The notes under the pieces were generated by a model. The model ran no database searches. It saw only the letters and a list, made by a program, of their open reading frames with translations, and was not told the DNA's origin. From the IMG/VR virus record IMGVR_UViG_2558860472_000005, positions 1 through 34,628 of that record: a stretch of DNA of 34,628 nucleotides. The stretch is one strand, 5' to 3'. Numbering within the stretch: position 1 is the stretch's first letter; each line of letters opens with the position of its first letter. A program made the translations under genes and the position numbers. Shown here piece by piece: positions 7,854 to 15,623 of the stretch. The stretch comes from a virus. Taxonomy: Duplodnaviria; Heunggongvirae; Uroviricota; Caudoviricetes.

Positions 7854-8342
7854 ATGAGTCTGTTAAATGACGTTCAGAAATTCATTGAAGCCCATCCTGG
7901 GTGTACTTCCGGAGACATTGCGGATGCTTTTGCAGGTTACTCACGGCAGCGCGTTCTGCAGTCTGCAAGCAAGTTACGTCAGAGTGGGCGTGTGGCTCAC
8001 CGTTGTGAAGGAGATACACGCAGACATTTCCCGCGCCTGACTGAGAGAGCGCAGGAGCCGGAACCACAACCAGTTCGTGAAACCAGACCTGTGCGCAATT
8101 TCTATGTCGGCACTAACGATCCCCGGGTGATTTTGTGCCTGACCCGCCAGGCTGAAGAACTGGAGTCAAGGGGCTTATACCGTCGTGCTGCAACCGTGTG
8201 GATGGCGGCATTCCGTGAAAGCCACTCCCAGCCAGAACGAAACAATTTTCTGGCGCGTCGTGAGCAGTGCTTACAGAAAAGCAGCAAGCGCGCTGCATCG
8301 GGTGAAGAGTGGTATCTGTCAGGGAATTACGTGGGGGCGTAA
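7854..8342 (+). CDS. PerC-domain transcriptional regulator-like protein
   Basis: The C-terminal segment AEELESRGLYRRAATVWMAAF matches the A..LE..G.WRRAA..W signature remembered for the PerC/Pch family. The start is ambiguous: GTG at 7848 or ATG at 7854 after AGGGGG. Confidence 0.5.
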   Translation: MSLLNDVQKFIEAHPGCTSGDIADAFAGYSRQRVLQSASKLRQSGRVAHRCEGDTRRHFPRLTERAQEPEPQPVRETRPVRNFYVGTNDPRVILCLTRQAEELESRGLYRRAATVWMAAFRESHSQPERNNFLARREQCLQKSSKRAASGEEWYLSGNYVGA

Positions 8343-10868: not shown

Positions 10869-10885
10869 TTTTGTGGAGAAAGTTG

Positions 10886-11257
10886 ATGCGTGATATTCAA
10901 ATGGTTCTTGAACGTTGGGGTGCATGGGTGGCAAATAATCACGAGGATGTCACTTGGTCGTCTATTGCTGCAGGATTTAAAGGACTAATCCCTTCAAAAG
11001 TAAAATCCCGCCCGCAATGTTGTGACGATGACGCGATGATCATTTGTGGGTGTATGGCTCGCCTGAAAAAGAACAACAGCGATTTGCACGATTTATTAGT
11101 GGATTACTATGTAGGAGGTATGACATTTATGGCGCTTGCCCGTAAACATGGGCGTTCTGATTGCTGGGTTGGGCGTTTATTGCAAAAAGCGGAAGGAGTA
11201 GTTGATGGTATGTTGATAATGCTAGATATTGAATTGGAAATGGAACGTAAAATTTAG
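10886..11257 (+). CDS. Late-gene antiterminator Q-like protein
   Basis: The likely start is ATG at 10886, 7 nt after [22 protein letters not shown].. with a Cys cluster ([14 protein letters not shown]), and the last gene before the lysis region. The family assignment is from memory. Confidence 0.6.
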
Positions 11258-11486
11258 TTATGTTATGAATAAATAAATGCTAATGATTTTTGTAAGATAG
11301 CTCATTTTATGTCCATAGGTGATGTATGCATTAATATGATTAATTTGTCTCCTTATAAAAATAAGATTATGTAAATAATAACAAAGGGTGACATTATTAA
11401 GTGTTGCTTTTTCTTAGTAAGTTGTTATCCTACTTAAGGTTGAATGATATTGTATCGAATAAAGTTGCTTATATAGAATTATTTTT

Positions 11487-12014
11487 ATGTTATGGCTTAT
11501 TGAGTTAGTTAATAGGATGATTGAATCAATGCTTTCAAATGTAATTTTAAGTGGAGCTATGTCCACGTTATTGGCTGCATTTCTAATTTTTGTGTTTAAG
11601 GAGTATATAAAAAGGCCACCTAATTTTTCAGGGGTGTTTGAGATCGAGTGTAAAACGCTAAAATCATCATATAATTCATATGTAAACCTAACTACATTCT
11701 ATACATTAGTGTTGATTTGTGATAATAACACTATAGAAGGACATATTGAAAAAATAAAAGATATCGAAAATGATGGGTATGAAAGAAAATATATTGGCGT
11801 GCATCGCAATATTGGCGATGTCAATGGTGTAATTAAAAGAAATTACTTAAGACCTAACCATGCTTCGTTGAATATAAAAATGCATGGTGATAAGAGGGAT
11901 TATACTATTATGCTATATTTTAAGAAGGTGAATACGAAAAATATGAAAGGAACTTTTTTATCTACTGCTGCAGATTCTTCTGGAGATGTTAAGTGGCAGC
12001 GAAAAAATTTTTAA
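11487..12014 (+). CDS. Hypothetical single-pass membrane protein (first gene of the AT-rich cassette)
   Basis: N-terminal hydrophobic helix (VILSGAMSTLLAAFLIFVF) followed by a soluble domain. Very low G+C. The start codon is uncertain (several Met, weak SDs). It overlaps the next gene by 22 nt. Confidence 0.5.
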   Translation: MLWLIELVNRMIESMLSNVILSGAMSTLLAAFLIFVFKEYIKRPPNFSGVFEIECKTLKSSYNSYVNLTTFYTLVLICDNNTIEGHIEKIKDIENDGYERKYIGVHRNIGDVNGVIKRNYLRPNHASLNIKMHGDKRDYTIMLYFKKVNTKNMKGTFLSTAADSSGDVKWQRKNF

Positions 12015-12637
12015 TTTATTTACTGTCGTTGCCATATTTAATAATGGCTTCGATTATCATAAAGCTTAAAGTTAAAAGTATAATTGATGATTATGAGAAA
12101 TGTACTACTTATATTTACTGTAACTCGAAGAAATATAATAACATTTCTCCTGTTATGATTGATATATTAAGGTTAGCAGAGGATCATCGACAATTATTGC
12201 ATAGAGGGATTGACCCCATTGCAATCATTAGAACTTTTTATCTGAGGATATTTAAAAATATACACCAAGGAGCGAGCACTATAGAACAGCAGTTTGTGAG
12301 AACTATAACTAAAAGATACGAAAAAACAATACGTAGAAAGATAAGAGAGCAGATATTGGCTATATTGATTAGAAATGTATCAACTCCAGATGATATATGT
12401 AAGTGTTATCTTTCTTGTTGTTACTATGGCTATGGAACTTATGGGATAGATAATCTTTTAAAAAAGAAACAAAATATCAGTGATTTTGATATTGTTGCAA
12501 TGATTAAATATCCATTCAGGGGAGAAGTTGTTTCAGTTACAGAGGAACGATTTAAACATAGGTCGCTCTATCTTTCCACTTTATATAAATTAAATGCACA
12601 AAGGGATATGATTTTTTTGCGAAAATATAGTGGGTGA
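11993..12637 (+). CDS. Membrane-anchored GT51-family peptidoglycan glycosyltransferase homologue (MtgA-like)
   Basis: GTG start 7 nt after GGAG, with an N-terminal TM helix (FLIYLLSLPYLIMASIII). The GT51 motifs occur in order: AEDHRQLLHRGID (EDxxFxxHxGxD), QGASTIEQQ (GGSTITQQ) and RRKIRE (RKxxE). Both catalytic Glu positions are present. Confidence 0.7.
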   Translation: MAAKKFLIYLLSLPYLIMASIIIKLKVKSIIDDYEKCTTYIYCNSKKYNNISPVMIDILRLAEDHRQLLHRGIDPIAIIRTFYLRIFKNIHQGASTIEQQFVRTITKRYEKTIRRKIREQILAILIRNVSTPDDICKCYLSCCYYGYGTYGIDNLLKKKQNISDFDIVAMIKYPFRGEVVSVTEERFKHRSLYLSTLYKLNAQRDMIFLRKYSG

Positions 12638-12834
12638 TTATGTTAAGTGTATTTTATTATGTGTCAAAAAGTTTAGTCATCTCTGCTTAATGTATAATCG
12701 TGAATGTTTTTATTCAGATTTTATGCATGTCAAGTTGATGAGTGCCGTCGACATAAGATATGGGGATAATGAATAGTTTACAATCGTAAATAATAGAATA
12801 TCCTGTTAAAAGTGGTTACTTCTCCACGCAGCTT

Positions 12835-12866
12835 AAACCCGCCGTCGAGCGGGTTTTGTCGTTTCT
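12835..12866 (+). terminator. Hairpin terminator upstream of the holin (tR'-like position)
   Basis: AAACCCGC-CGTCGA-GCGGGTTT followed by TGTCGTTTCT. It lies just right of the point where G+C returns to backbone level. Confidence 0.5.
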
Positions 12867-13008
12867 GGGTCTGGGGATTCCTTGGTCCTAGCCTATCCCG
12901 CAGTTATCCATTAACTCGGCTTCTTTGACGTTTCCGCTTCTGATTTGCGGTACATGATGTTTCCTCAATTTGCACCTGCTGTATCAGCGAGGTGAGAGAT
13001 AACTACAA

Positions 13009-13338: not shown

Positions 13339-13815
13339 ATGCAGGCACTAAATTCCCAGCGTAAAGCTTTCCTTGATATGGTGGCATGGTCAGAAGGAAC
13401 GGATAACGGGCGACAACCGACACGTAACCACGGTTATGACGTTATTGTTGGTGGTGAACTGTTTACTGATTACTCCGATCATCCTCGCAAACTTGTCACG
13501 CTAAACCCCAAACTCAAATCAACAGCCGCCGGACGTTACCAGCTTCTTTCACGTTGGTGGGATGCTTACCGTAAACAGCTTGGTTTGAAAGACTTCTCCC
13601 CCAAAAGCCAGGACGCTGTGGCATTGCAGCAGATTAAAGAACGTGGCGCTTTACCGATGATTGATCGTGGTGATATTCGTCAGGCTATCGACCGTTGCAG
13701 CAATATCTGGGCTTCGTTGCCGGGCGCTGGTTACGGTCAGTATGAACATAAAATTGGTGACCTGATTGCCAGGTTTAAAGAGGTTGGCGGGGTGGTAAAT
13801 GAAGTTGAGCTATAA
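13339..13815 (+). CDS. R: Endolysin, lambda R-type lytic transglycosylase
   Basis: NSQRKAFLDMVAWSEGTDNGRQPTRNHGYDVIVGGELFTDYSDHPRKLVTLNPKL... is near-identical in pattern to lambda R. Confidence 0.95.
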   Translation: MQALNSQRKAFLDMVAWSEGTDNGRQPTRNHGYDVIVGGELFTDYSDHPRKLVTLNPKLKSTAAGRYQLLSRWWDAYRKQLGLKDFSPKSQDAVALQQIKERGALPMIDRGDIRQAIDRCSNIWASLPGAGYGQYEHKIGDLIARFKEVGGVVNEVEL

Positions 13816-14260
13816 GCTAGTTATCGCTGCTTTCTTCGTTACTATTATTGGTTCTTTCATCTGGTCAGCGAATCATTACCACAATCAAGCCATTGAATAC
13901 AAAAAGCAGCGCGACGAAAACGCTATGGCATTACATTCGGCTATGGCGACGATCTCTGATATGCAGAAGCGTCAACGTGACGTAGCTGAACTTGACGCCA
14001 GATACACAAAGGAGCTTGCTGATGCTAACACGACTCTCGAAAGTCTCCGTACTGATGTCTCTGCTGGTCGTAAGCGCTTGCAATTCGCCGCCACCTGTGC
14101 AAAGTCAACGACCGGAGCCAGCGGCATGGGCTATGGAGAAAGTCCAAGACTTACAGCTGATGCTGAACTCAATTATTACCGCCTCCGAAGTGGGATCGAC
14201 AAGATAACTGCACAGGTTAACTACTTGCAGGAGTACATCAAGACACAGTGCCAGAAATGA
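13799..14260 (+). CDS. Rz: i-spanin Rz
   Basis: N-terminal TM anchor and a coiled-coil periplasmic domain. It overlaps the end of the endolysin gene and has Rz1 embedded in it. Confidence 0.9.
   Translation: MKLSYKLVIAAFFVTIIGSFIWSANHYHNQAIEYKKQRDENAMALHSAMATISDMQKRQRDVAELDARYTKELADANTTLESLRTDVSAGRKRLQFAATCAKSTTGASGMGYGESPRLTADAELNYYRLRSGIDKITAQVNYLQEYIKTQCQK
14022..14207 (+). CDS. Rz1: o-spanin Rz1 (embedded lipoprotein)
   Basis: Lies in the +1 frame inside Rz, with ATG at 14022, 7 nt after GGAG. It has a lipobox (LLVVSAC) followed by a Pro-rich mature peptide. Confidence 0.8.
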   Translation: MLTRLSKVSVLMSLLVVSACNSPPPVQSQRPEPAAWAMEKVQDLQLMLNSIITASEVGSTR

Positions 14261-14332
14261 ATCTATAGATGACACTCCACGTTCGTATAAGATAATGCTA
14301 AATTACTATTAGCTTAATCACAGGAGACGGAC

Positions 14333-15196
14333 ATGGAAAGAGGTGTGGTATTTAGTGCATGCGAATTACTTAAAACCGAGGATGGAAAAGGCATCCGTAC
14401 AGGTAAATGGATTAGTCAATTAGAAATAAACTATCTATGTCTTTATTGGGATAAACTAGTTTCACCCACTAATAATATTATACATACAGCATTAAATAAC
14501 GAGGATGAATTAGAAAAATGTGGATTGCTAACCAGACCGGTATATAGACATCATGGTTGTTTTGATGGCCAATATATGGCGGATTTTTATGCTGAAACTC
14601 ATGCCAAAACAATAGATATACTTAGGCATGCGGATTCTTCTGTCGATTGGCGCATGCATTTTTTAAGTGACCAAATAAACTTGGTGCCTGAATTATCTAG
14701 AACCTCAGAAGTGATACGTTTTGAGCTAGCAAATTTATTACCCGTTCCCACAGAAGATGTGCACCTACATGATATTCTTGATTTCAAGGAAAGAAGAAAA
14801 CCTGAATTAATCGCTTTACATGAATATCTTGATGAGCTTTACTTGGAAATAAAACGTTCTGGTGATATCAATCTTCAGAAAGCAAAAGCTCTTTCTAATC
14901 TTAAACAAGCAATAAAGGATATCGAACGCTTAAATTGTGAAGTGTGGAAAAGTCCAATAAAATTTAGCATCTCTACTTCTTTTGAGTTCGATTTTTCACA
15001 AATATTTAGTCTGGCGGGAACTGTTTTATCTATGTCAGTAGATTATCCTTATAATGTTATTGGAGGGGTAAGTAGTTTGGCTTGTTTTTTGGGAGGATGC
15101 ATAAAAATAAAGCCGCAATTTCAACAAGTGTTATCATTAGGTAATGATAAATTAGTTTACATAAGCAAAGGAAAATCGGAGGGTATTATTTCCTGA
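14333..15196 (+). CDS. Hypothetical 287-aa protein (post-lysis moron)
   Basis: Low-G+C ORF with SD AGGAG between Rz and HNH. The C-terminal part is hydrophobic (IFSLAGTVLSMSV ... VIGGVSSLACFLGGCI). No family recognised. Confidence 0.6.
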   Translation: MERGVVFSACELLKTEDGKGIRTGKWISQLEINYLCLYWDKLVSPTNNIIHTALNNEDELEKCGLLTRPVYRHHGCFDGQYMADFYAETHAKTIDILRHADSSVDWRMHFLSDQINLVPELSRTSEVIRFELANLLPVPTEDVHLHDILDFKERRKPELIALHEYLDELYLEIKRSGDINLQKAKALSNLKQAIKDIERLNCEVWKSPIKFSISTSFEFDFSQIFSLAGTVLSMSVDYPYNVIGGVSSLACFLGGCIKIKPQFQQVLSLGNDKLVYISKGKSEGIIS

Positions 15197-15272
15197 TTTT
15201 TGATTCTCATAATCAATGAATGTTTTTTGTGAATATACTTATTTTAACCCTATAAATAATCAAGGTAATAAA

Positions 15273-15623
15273 GTGCCTCCTCGTATCCCGAAAGCCTGCC
15301 GTGCTCGAGGTTGCCGTAATACCACCACAGACCCGTCAGGCTACTGCGAAAGCCACAAAAGCGAAGGCTGGAAGCAATACAAGCCAGGCCAGTCCCGACA
15401 CCAGCGCGGTTATGGTTCGAAATGGGATGTTATCCGTGAACGTGTGCTCAAGCGTGACAAAGGCCTGTGTCAGTTGTGTTTGCGTGCCGGTGTGGTGCGT
15501 GAGGCGAAAACCGTTGACCACATCATCCCTAAAGCACATGGCGGCACTGATGCCGACAGTAATCTGCAGAGTCTGTGCTGGCCGTGTCATAAGGCGAAGA
15601 CGGCCCGTGAACGGTTGAAGTAA
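15273..15623 (+). CDS. HNH endonuclease (terminase-associated)
   Basis: CxxC ... DHIIPKAHGGTDADSNLQSLCWPCHKAKT. The likely start is GTG at 15273 (MPPRIPKACRARGC); the track ORF starts at 15216. It sits immediately upstream of terS, as in HK97-like cos phages. Confidence 0.85.
   Translation: MPPRIPKACRARGCRNTTTDPSGYCESHKSEGWKQYKPGQSRHQRGYGSKWDVIRERVLKRDKGLCQLCLRAGVVREAKTVDHIIPKAHGGTDADSNLQSLCWPCHKAKTARERLK

What the first reader, a model, noticed from the sequence alone, without database searches (positions are those of the whole stretch)
14261..15215. Orphan 287-aa low-G+C gene inserted between the spanins and HNH/terminase
Seen in sequence: a single ORF (14333-15196, SD AGGAG) with visibly lower G+C than the flanking lysis and packaging genes occupies a classical moron slot. 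The protein has a soluble N-terminal part with conserved-looking His/Cys/Asp residues (RPVYRHHGCFDGQYMADFY), a helical middle region and a hydrophobic C-terminal region (IFSLAGTVLSMSV...VIGGVSSLACFLGGCI). I recognise no family.
Inference: it is a candidate single-gene exclusion or abortive-infection determinant.
Basis: partly seen in the sequence, partly recalled or inferred. Interest (0 to 1): 0.5.

Follow-up and report, generated by a model that had tools for sequence, protein, structure and literature searches.

The report
DUF6236 moron in prophage late operon
A real, AT-rich accessory gene with its own conserved promoter sits between the lysis and DNA-packaging genes of an E. coli prophage; it belongs to a large catalogued family (DUF6236) that nobody has characterised, and a role in protecting the lysogen from other phages is plausible but untested.

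Summary
The ORF (14333-15196, 287 aa) is real. It is strongly AT-rich (GC 0.34, GC3 0.24) and lies in a replaceable cargo segment (about 14253-15272) between Rz/Rz1 and the HNH/terminase genes.

It is not an orphan. It matches Pfam DUF6236 (E=1.8e-31) and PHROG 23128, and RefSeq annotates it. The family has about 1,700 clusters at 50% identity, nearly all stand-alone proteins of 270-310 aa.

The gene is accessory: 32 of 5,426 complete E. coli genomes carry it, while the flanking genes occur in 3,571. In 31 of 50 viral contigs it follows a lysis cassette (four endolysin families). A conserved extended -10 element (TGnTAnnnT, about 40 nt before the ATG) travels with it in 20 of 30 non-redundant upstream regions.

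No conserved partner gene, defence-model hit, solved-structure relative or paper exists.

The model (pLDDT 85) shows an alpha/beta domain, a helical hairpin and a poorly modelled Gly/Ala/Ser-rich hydrophobic segment.

My best guess (about 0.3) is a lysogen-expressed, single-protein exclusion or abortive-infection factor that acts at the membrane. A late phage function or a phage-unrelated host function remain serious rivals.

The parts
14253..15272 (.). Replaceable cargo segment (about 1.0 kb, low G+C) between the end of Rz and the start of the HNH gene
   Evidence: blastn against relatives without the gene: homology ends at 14252 and resumes at 15268-15274. GC is 0.30-0.38 across it against 0.46-0.60 in the flanks. 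No flanking direct or inverted repeats.
14296..14304 (+). Predicted extended -10 promoter element TGCTAAATT (TG at 14296-14297, hexamer TAAATT at 14299-14304), 37 nt before the ATG
   Evidence: TGnTAnnnT lies 36-43 nt before the start codon in 20 of 30 non-redundant upstream regions whose sequence is otherwise diverged. Background is 0.0076 per sequence; binomial P about 1e-35, though the sequences are related. The consensus scan called an overlapping site, ATGACA-16-GATAAT, at 14269-14296. Transcription has not been measured.
14322..14326 (+). Shine-Dalgarno sequence AGGAG, 6 nt before the ATG
   Evidence: Read directly from the sequence.
14333..15196 (+). DUF6236-family gene, 287 aa
   Evidence: ORF list; Pfam PF19749 E=1.8e-31; PHROG 23128 E=4e-142; RefSeq 'DUF6236 family protein' WP_021556491.1 in a 99% identical prophage.
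14333..14752 (+). Residues 1-140: alpha/beta domain with the invariant LYWD...P motif (residues 37-45), D105-W106 and LPVP (residues 136-139); the hypervariable patch lies at residues 68-100
   Evidence: AlphaFold model 2, block pLDDT 87-98 over residues 1-140; conservation; entropy.
14765..14944 (+). Residues 145-204: long helical hairpin (DILEFKERR..EL.ALH.YLDELY...SGD...)
   Evidence: Helices 145-154, 156-175 and 179-204 in the models. This is the best-conserved block.
14996..15103 (+). Residues 222-257: Gly/Ala/Ser-rich, moderately hydrophobic segment. Its sequence varies but its composition is conserved. It is a candidate membrane-interacting hairpin.
   Evidence: Best 19-residue hydropathy is 1.50 at residues 241-259. 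Across the family the median is 1.52, and in 94% of members the maximum lies in the last 30% of the protein. G/A/S are 11/13/10% here against 5/5/7% elsewhere, and R/D/E are depleted. Block pLDDT is 46-63 over residues 221-250 (<50 at 232-235 and 240-251) while the flanking strands are confident.
15197..15272 (+). AT-rich 3' tail of the cargo with no canonical intrinsic terminator
   Evidence: No + strand terminator found. 8 of 29 relatives do have a terminator within 200 nt after the gene (also seen).
13799..14260 (+). Left flank: Rz i-spanin, with the Rz1 o-spanin embedded at 13992-14207 (lipobox LVVSAC)
   Evidence: Pfam Phage_lysis E=3.9e-38; ORF list.
15273..15623 (+). Right flank: HNH endonuclease of the HNH/P27-terminase packaging module. 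The true start is GTG 15273.
   Evidence: Pfam HNH E=3.1e-16. The RefSeq start in XH990 corresponds to 15273. Homology with relatives begins at 15268-15274.

Best explanation
What it is (shown). The gene is a self-contained accessory gene ('moron') of a temperate E. coli phage. The cargo is about 1 kb and AT-rich. It carries its own extended -10 promoter and one gene for a cytoplasmic 287-aa protein of the uncharacterised DUF6236 family. It sits in the variable interval between the lysis cassette and the packaging module.

How it most likely works (inferred).
1. The protein is made in the lysogen from its own promoter. It is also made late in lytic growth, by read-through of the late operon.
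2. It acts alone, because it has no conserved partner.
3. Its conserved alpha/beta domain and helical hairpin form a sensing or oligomerising body. The surface patch at residues 68-100 diversifies rapidly.
4. On a trigger from a superinfecting phage, the Gly/Ala/Ser-rich, marginally hydrophobic segment (residues 222-257) engages the inner membrane. This either blocks entry or collapses the membrane potential, giving superinfection exclusion or abortive infection that protects the lysogen population.
For: SHOWN
- Real gene and family membership.
- Accessory status: 32 of 5,426 genomes carry the gene, against 3,571 with the flanks. Relatives have other cargo or none in the same slot.
- Foreign composition in every enterobacterial host: gene GC 0.37-0.39 against about 0.49-0.54 in the flanks of the enterobacterial prophage loci.
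- Own promoter: an extended -10 element at a fixed distance in 20 of 30 diverged upstream regions. 8 of 29 relatives also have a terminator after the gene.
- Stand-alone: no recurrent neighbour in 37 chromosomal loci. Nearly all of the listed family members (the best 150 of about 1,700 clusters) are single-domain proteins of 270-310 aa.
- It is carried by temperate phages in accessory positions. It follows lysis cassettes with four endolysin families and precedes at least three terminase types: 31 of 50 IMG/VR loci have lysis genes upstream and 27 of 50 have packaging genes downstream. It lies next to the integrase in Klebsiella phage Mulock and at the end of a Vibrio prophage element.
- Precedent: the lysis-to-packaging interval of phi80 carries the validated, lysogen-expressed defence gene taiEcA (PMC11364771).
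- The hydrophobic character of the C-terminal segment is conserved in composition but not in sequence.
- The most variable stretches are residues 71-100 and 221-250.

INFERRED: expression in the lysogen, membrane action, and the anti-phage phenotype.
Against: - No hit to any PADLOC model for this protein, and only single-member, noise-level hits among 147 family members.
- Neighbours of chromosomal homologues show only a handful of defence-model hits (one type IIG restriction-modification enzyme, one PD-Lambda-1, some methyltransferases), so there is no clear enrichment.
- In Psychrobacter the gene sits in the same housekeeping-looking context (photolyase, DUF3429, NnrS, Rrf2) in loci from three genome assemblies. 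That looks vertically inherited rather than mobile.
- The hydrophobic segment is below the usual transmembrane threshold (1.50 against 1.6). AlphaFold places confident beta strands on either side of it, so it could simply be a flexible loop of a soluble protein.
- The gene is co-oriented with the late operon wherever flanks are recognisable. It is therefore also expressed during the phage's own lytic growth, which is awkward for a suicidal effector. taiEcA is antisense to the late operon (PMC11364771).
- No recognisable effector or catalytic domain, and no structural relative.
Confidence: 0.3

Rival explanations
1. A host-physiology (lysogenic-conversion or housekeeping-type) protein unrelated to phage defence. 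DUF6236 would be a cytoplasmic protein with a cellular role such as stress or envelope homeostasis. Temperate phages would have picked it up as a fitness cargo, as they did bor/iss.
For: - Most family diversity lies outside phages, in chromosomes of many phyla with unrelated, often housekeeping neighbours.
- The context is conserved in loci from three Psychrobacter genome assemblies.
- In low-GC marine hosts the gene's GC (0.37-0.39) is close to that of the host (0.40-0.42). This suggests it is native there and was exported to enterobacterial phages.
- There are no defence-model hits.
- In other E. coli prophages the same slot carries the serum-resistance gene iss/bor.
Against: - Distribution is sporadic: 0.6% of E. 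coli genomes, and different contexts among Pseudoalteromonas strains.
- There is repeated capture by unrelated temperate phages and rapid diversification of two segments. Both are more typical of conflict genes.
- No enzymatic motif or known fold points to a cellular pathway.
Confidence: 0.25
2. A phage-serving late function linked to lysis or release. It would be expressed with the late operon right after the spanins and would modulate lysis timing, membrane events at lysis or re-adsorption of progeny. Alternatively it would act as a counter-defence or self-immunity factor during the phage's own lytic growth.
For: - It lies immediately 3' of the lysis cassette and on the same strand in 31 of 50 viral loci, whatever the endolysin family (GH19, GH108, T4-type, GH24/104) or holin family.
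- In the window there is no terminator between Rz and the gene, or after it, so late transcripts must include it.
- In phi80 the co-oriented gene of this interval (atiEcA) is the late-expressed anti-defence partner (PMC11364771).
- It has a membrane-leaning C-terminal segment.
Against: - It is absent from the great majority of closely related prophages, which lyse without it.
- It carries its own conserved promoter, which a purely late gene does not need.
- Homologues occur in chromosomes with no lysis genes nearby, and at integrase-adjacent or terminal positions in other phages.
- It has no signal peptide, lipobox or true transmembrane helix as holins, antiholins and spanins have.
Confidence: 0.2
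3. A selfish or effectively neutral passenger: for example a mildly toxic addiction-type gene, or an H-NS-silenced xenogeneic gene with no current function in E. coli. It would persist because the lysis-packaging junction tolerates insertions.
For: - Very AT-rich DNA (GC 0.34) is typically silenced in Enterobacteriaceae (established knowledge of H-NS; composition).
- The slot tolerates many unrelated cargos.
- No function can be assigned.
Against: - The protein is conserved full-length across about 1,700 clusters, with near-invariant residues.
- All 32 listed E. coli copies are annotated as DUF6236 CDSs with no pseudogene note, 31 of them at 99% identity or more.
- The promoter element is conserved with the gene.
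- These are signs of selection on an expressed product.
Confidence: 0.1

Closest known systems
Pfam PF19749 (DUF6236) / PHROG 23128 / RefSeq 'DUF6236 family protein' (WP_021556491.1)
   Same: It is a direct member: 110 bits against a gathering score of 26.2, and a full-length match to PHROG 23128 (E=4e-142). It has the same length and single-domain architecture as the rest of the family.
   Different: Nothing differs. However, the family has no assigned function, no solved structure and no paper in the searched library. The Pfam model is longer at its N-terminus: the match covers model positions 74-268 of 324.
TaiEcA (orf63) of phage phi80, a lysogen-expressed tail-assembly-interference defence moron (PMC11364771)
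   Same: It occupies the same genomic interval, between Rz/Rz1 and the packaging module or cos. It is a single accessory protein of a temperate coliphage and is not needed for the lytic cycle (PMC11364771).
   Different: - No sequence relationship: hhalign probability 0.6%, and tblastn of the phage collection does not hit phi80.
- taiEcA is antisense to the late operon and has an adjacent anti-Tai gene.
- The DUF6236 gene is co-oriented with the late operon and has no adjacent small partner in the window.
Classical lambdoid morons: lambda bor / E. coli iss, and HK97 gp15 (named from established knowledge; iss is seen in this slot)
   Same: It is an extra gene between conserved late-region genes, with deviant base composition, its own promoter and a present/absent polymorphism among related phages.
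   Different: - Bor/Iss are small lipoproteins and gp15 is a small inner-membrane protein. This one is a 287-aa cytoplasmic alpha/beta plus helical protein with no signal peptide or lipobox.
- The window copy has no terminator.
Membrane-acting abortive-infection or exclusion proteins (lambda RexA/RexB; lactococcal AbiZ). These are functional analogies only.
   Same: The proposed logic is the same: a prophage- or mobile-element-encoded cytoplasmic sensing part coupled to a membrane-active part, which protects the population.
   Different: - No homology to RexA: hhalign probability 0.1%.
- It is one protein rather than two.
- The hydrophobic segment is sub-threshold for a transmembrane helix.

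Membership tests
Pfam DUF6236 (PF19749) | Score above the curated gathering threshold of the family HMM | tested here: met
   110 bits against a cut-off of 26.2, E=1.8e-31, residues 24-229. All 36 aligned homologues also match.
Pfam DUF6236 (PF19749) | Family-typical architecture: a stand-alone protein of about 280-300 aa with no fused domains | tested here: met
   Nearly all of the 150 best of 1,729 representative hits are 270-310 aa and align end to end. No second Pfam family is shared among members.
PHROG 23128 (phage protein family, unknown function) | Full-length match to the PHROG profile | tested here: met
   E=4.2e-142, residues 1-285 against profile positions 1-288 of 288.
Moron (extra transcription unit in a temperate phage genome) | Present in some closely related phages and absent from others, between conserved genes | tested here: met
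   32 of 5,426 genomes carry it. In relatives the slot is empty or holds other cargo. Homology breakpoints lie at 14252 and 15268-15274.
Moron (extra transcription unit in a temperate phage genome) | Base composition different from the surrounding phage genes | tested here: met
   GC 0.344 and GC3 0.24 against 0.47-0.59 and 0.43-0.67. The same contrast is seen in Klebsiella and Enterobacter prophages.
Moron (extra transcription unit in a temperate phage genome) | Own promoter upstream of the gene | tested here: inconclusive
   The sequence evidence is strong: an extended -10 element at -36 to -43 in 20 of 30 diverged relatives, and TGCTAAATT at 14296-14304 in the window. Transcription has not been measured, and the single-sequence scan is not above chance on its own.
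Moron (extra transcription unit in a temperate phage genome) | Own terminator downstream of the gene | tested here: not met
   There is no intrinsic terminator between 15197 and the HNH gene. 8 of 29 relatives do have one.
Known or candidate anti-phage defence systems (PADLOC-DB v2.0.0) | Match to any defence-protein HMM | tested here: not met
   0 families for this protein at E up to 1. Among 147 family members, 10 models are each hit by a single member, which is noise.
Known or candidate anti-phage defence systems (guilt by association) | Enrichment of defence genes in the neighbourhood of homologues | tested here: inconclusive
   Among 136 neighbouring ORFs at 37 chromosomal loci there are a few hits (one type IIG restriction-modification enzyme, one PD-Lambda-1, some methyltransferases) and no background model. 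Co-cargo in the phage slot hits nothing.
Tai (tail assembly interference) defence morons | Homology to TaiEcA (phi80 orf63) | tested here: not met
   hhalign probability 0.6%. There is no tblastn hit in phi80, which is in the collection.
Rex exclusion system | Homology to lambda RexA | tested here: not met
   hhalign probability 0.1%. RexB was not compared and the window was not screened for a RexB-like gene.
Phage lysis cassette component (holin, antiholin, spanin) | Conserved in related phages; true transmembrane helix, signal sequence or lipobox | tested here: not met
   It is absent from most relatives with the same lysis genes. Best hydropathy is 1.50, below 1.6, and the N-terminus MERGVVFSACELLK shows no evident signal peptide or lipobox by eye; no predictor was run.
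Abortive infection / superinfection exclusion determinant (functional class) | Reduces plating or burst of a superinfecting phage when expressed alone | not testable with these tools
   This requires plaque, liquid-infection and membrane-potential assays.

The most novel reading that the evidence does not exclude
DUF6236 is a previously unrecognised, very widespread family (about 1,700 clusters at 50% identity, across many bacterial phyla) of single-protein anti-phage determinants. Temperate phages of Enterobacteriaceae carry it with its own extended -10 promoter in the lysis-to-packaging hotspot. A conserved alpha/beta-plus-helical sensor body drives a Gly/Ala/Ser-rich hairpin into the membrane to exclude or abort superinfecting phages.
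Probability: 0.3. Interest if true: 0.6.

Novelty: new member of a known kind. Interest (0 to 1): 0.4.

Why it matters
- If DUF6236 is a defence or exclusion protein, it adds a new single-gene system that current defence finders miss. It would also explain a recurrent cargo of Klebsiella, Enterobacter, Citrobacter and E. coli prophages, which is relevant to phage-therapy host range.
- The comparative data give a ready-made experiment: a 1-kb cassette with its native promoter, natural controls with an empty slot, and two variable segments to swap.
- If it proves to be a host-physiology or late-lysis factor, it would still assign a function to a DUF with more than a thousand clusters.
- As it stands, it is a well-documented but ordinary case: an uncharacterised moron in a known hotspot.

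Tried and rejected
2. Sequence profiles against the PDB (36 and 147 sequences) gave only E of 0.08 or worse, to 14-3-3 helices.
3. NCBIfam gave no hit. Scanning 36 members against Pfam at E up to 5 found no second family.
4. RexA and TaiEcA homology were rejected.
5. An SD-sequestering hairpin in the 5' UTR looked plausible by eye in some relatives (CCCC/GGGG, CCTC/GAGG). Folding of the predicted UTRs is no more stable than shuffles (z mostly 0 to +1.7), and the anti-SD would lie at or before the predicted start site. The idea was dropped.
6. A transposon or integron-like insertion was ruled out: there are no flanking repeats. There is no Rfam element.
7. Partner gene. A 485-aa ORF follows the gene in 12 of 50 viral loci, but it is absent from the window and most loci and has no Pfam or PADLOC hit.
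8. A PD-(D/E)xK reading of D40...E150-x-K152 was rejected, because ExK lies in a helix in the model.
9. Literature. There are no papers with 'DUF6236' or 'PF19749'. The Listeria TerI paper is unrelated.
Full report
**The observation**

The window holds one long ORF at 14333-15196 on the + strand (287 aa). AGGAG lies six bases before the ATG. The region is sharply AT-rich. The gene has GC 0.344 and GC3 0.24. The holin, endolysin and Rz genes have GC 0.47-0.51, and the HNH, TerS and TerL genes have 0.51-0.59. At that composition about 7% of random codons are stops, so an open frame of 287 codons is not a chance event (about 4e-10, my arithmetic). The start codon is fixed by the family-wide N-terminus MxRG[VI].

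Upstream is Rz (Pfam Phage_lysis, E=3.9e-38) with Rz1 embedded at 13992-14207. Downstream are an HNH endonuclease and a P27-type small terminase plus TerL.

**Corrections to the observation**

The gene is not an orphan.
- It matches Pfam PF19749 (DUF6236) at 110 bits against a gathering score of 26.2.
- It matches PHROG 23128 end to end (E=4e-142).
- It is annotated 'DUF6236 family protein' in all 32 complete E. coli genomes that carry it (31 at 99% identity or more).
- A profile search of 1.84 billion representatives finds 1,729 clusters at 50% identity; nearly all of the 150 listed are 270-310 aa and align end to end.

Column entropy is 2.58 bits for residues 71-80 against a mean of 1.42. 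The residues conserved in at least 90% of 147 diverse members are G4, L37, Y38, W39, D40, P45, W106, P137, P139, L149, F151, K152, Y170, D178 and Y276.

The right border of the insert is about 15272, not 15215. Homology with relatives that lack the gene stops at 14252 and resumes at 15268-15274. The HNH gene starts at GTG 15273, as in RefSeq.

**Accessory status and the slot**

Pieces of the 2.9-kb interval from endolysin to TerS occur in 3,571 of 5,426 complete E. coli genomes. Only 32 carry the DUF6236 cargo. In close relatives the same slot is empty (27 nt between LysC and HNH), or holds two small hypothetical ORFs, or a DUF6979 gene, or iss/bor. There are no flanking repeats, so the cargo looks like a recombinational module swap rather than a transposition.

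Homologues at 33-52% identity sit in the same place in Klebsiella, Enterobacter and Providencia prophages. These have quite different lysis and head genes.

Among 50 non-identical IMG/VR loci, counted with Pfam-verified seeds:
- 31 have a lysis gene on the same strand within 3 kb upstream (GH19 14, GH108 9, T4-type lysozyme 5, GH24/104 1; several holin families).
- 27 have a packaging gene within 5 kb downstream (HNH/P27-type, lambda gpA-type and other TerL types).
- 20 have both.

Elsewhere the gene lies next to the integrase (Klebsiella phage Mulock) or at the end of a Vibrio prophage element. All of these are accessory positions of temperate phages.

The literature gives a direct precedent for the slot. 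In phi80 the interval between Rz/Rz1 and cos holds taiEcA (orf63), a lysogen-expressed defence gene. [quoted passage not shown]

**A promoter that travels with the gene**

Upstream regions of homologues are otherwise unalignable. They share an extended -10 element, TGnTAnnnT, 36-43 nt before the ATG in 20 of 30 non-redundant sequences. The background rate elsewhere upstream is 0.0076 per sequence (binomial P about 1e-35). The P value overstates independence, because the sequences are related.

In the window the element is TGCTAAATT at 14296-14304, which predicts a start near 14311. 8 of 29 relatives also have a canonical terminator within 200 nt after the gene. The window copy does not.

The gene is therefore very probably transcribed on its own. 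Because it is co-oriented with the late operon, with no terminator on either side, it is also transcribed late in lytic growth. Expression itself was not measured.

**The protein**

With a 147-sequence alignment AlphaFold gives pLDDT 85.1 and pTM 0.84. The model has these parts:
- an alpha/beta domain (residues 1-140, block pLDDT 87-98);
- a long helical hairpin (residues 145-204);
- confident strands at 210-218, 257-267 and 273-280;
- between those strands, a stretch whose 10-residue block means are 46-63 over residues 221-250 (pLDDT below 50 at 232-235 and 240-251).

Its best 19-residue Kyte-Doolittle mean is 1.50, just under the usual membrane cut-off. Across 216 family members the median is 1.52, and in 94% of them the maximum lies in the last 30% of the protein. 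The segment is enriched in Gly/Ala/Ser and depleted in Arg/Asp/Glu, while its sequence is not conserved. This is compatible with a conditionally membrane-inserting hairpin, and equally with a flexible loop.

No fold or sequence relative was found.
- Foldseek against PDB: best E 0.026, weak Rossmann-like and CARF-like hits.
- BFVD: none.
- PDB sequence profiles: none.

These fold searches used the first, poorer model. The better one could not be searched.

**Partner genes and defence association**

136 neighbouring ORFs (two on either side) at 37 chromosomal loci from many phyla hit 117 Pfam families, none more than twice. The protein therefore works alone, or with ubiquitous host factors.

PADLOC finds nothing for the protein, and only single-member noise among 147 relatives. 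Neighbours include one type IIG restriction-modification enzyme, one PD-Lambda-1 and a few methyltransferases. This is too little to call enrichment without a background model. Other cargo of the phage slot hits nothing.

In loci from three Psychrobacter genome assemblies the gene sits in the same context (photolyase, DUF3429, NnrS, Rrf2). That looks like stable chromosomal inheritance.

**Interpretation**

What is shown:
- It is a bona fide moron of the DUF6236 family.
- It is stand-alone, horizontally acquired and probably autonomously transcribed.
- It has been captured repeatedly by temperate phages in the lysis-to-packaging hotspot.

What is inferred is the mechanism. I commit to a lysogen-expressed, single-protein exclusion or abortive-infection factor that uses its C-terminal hairpin at the membrane. 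My confidence is only about 0.3.

The rivals are:
- a phage-unrelated host function carried as fitness cargo (0.25);
- a late, lysis-linked or counter-defence function for the phage itself (0.2), favoured by the constant position and orientation behind the lysis cassette;
- a silenced or selfish passenger (0.1).

Homology to RexA and TaiEcA was tested and rejected.

**Novelty and score**

The family is catalogued (Pfam, PHROG, RefSeq) but has no function, no structure and no paper in the searched library. The locus is a new, well-delimited example of a known kind of element, so I rate it 'new member of a known kind', with interest 0.4. It would rise to about 0.6 if the anti-phage reading were confirmed, because current defence finders miss the family and it is widespread.

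Noticed in passing
window 11260-12950 (ORFs 11487-12014 and 11993-12637, + strand): A second, even more AT-rich island (GC 0.25-0.32) lies between the Q antiterminator (10871-11257) and the holin (13009). It holds a 175-aa ORF with a hydrophobic N-terminal stretch and no family. It also holds a 214-aa protein with a hydrophobic N-terminal stretch and a GT51 peptidoglycan-glycosyltransferase domain (Pfam Transgly, E=1.6e-23). By eye, that protein's sequence carries stretches (AEDHRQLLHRGID, GASTIEQQ, RKIRE) resembling the GT51 motifs EDxxFxxHxG, GxSTITQQ and RKxxE as I recall them. Only 3 of 5,426 E. coli genomes carry the island. In the relative XH990 that slot holds a KAP NTPase on the opposite strand. 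A prophage-borne monofunctional transglycosylase is unusual and unexplained.
   Followed up: partly
window 15216-15272: The longest-ORF start of the HNH gene (ATG 15216) adds 19 AT-rich codons that belong to the cargo tail. Homology with relatives and the RefSeq annotation place the start at GTG 15273, giving 116 aa.
   Followed up: yes
window 13992-14207: The Rz1 o-spanin is embedded in the +1 frame of Rz. It has the lipobox LVVSAC and a Pro-rich mature part. This confirms the two-component spanin arrangement.
   Followed up: partly
L009:10309-11766 and 11 other IMG/VR loci (for example L092:6060-7514, L095:5948-7402): A 485-aa ORF with no Pfam or PADLOC family follows the DUF6236 gene, with its start about 0.1-1.4 kb after the DUF6236 stop, in 11 of the 50 viral loci; a twelfth locus (L082) has a partial, opposite-strand match about 3 kb away. 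These are Enterobacter-type prophages, where the slot has grown to about 5 kb of unknown cargo. The ORF is absent from the window.
   Followed up: partly
L013:8972-9976 (also L014, L015, L122, L123): In one Enterobacter prophage lineage a tyrosine integrase lies directly after the DUF6236 gene, between the lysis and packaging modules. This could be the phage's own integrase in an unusual place, or a small island nested in the prophage.
   Followed up: no
L016, L034 and L040, around position 8001 / 6001 / 4314: Loci from three Psychrobacter genome assemblies keep the DUF6236 gene in the same context (photolyase, DUF3429, DUF6236, NnrS, Rrf2-type regulator), an arrangement inferred for two of them from matching ORF sizes. 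This suggests stable chromosomal inheritance in that genus.
   Followed up: partly
upstream regions of L078, L081, L083 and L100 (about 30 nt before the ATG): Several relatives have a short complement of their Shine-Dalgarno sequence just after the -10 element (CCCC...GGGG, CCTC...GAGG, CCTG...CAGG). Folding gave no stability signal, and the element may lie before the transcription start.
   Followed up: partly
L001:18764-19926 (E. coli XH990 relative): In the 99% identical prophage of strain XH990 an IS3 element is inserted between the terminase large subunit and the portal gene. The window has no such insertion.
   Followed up: no
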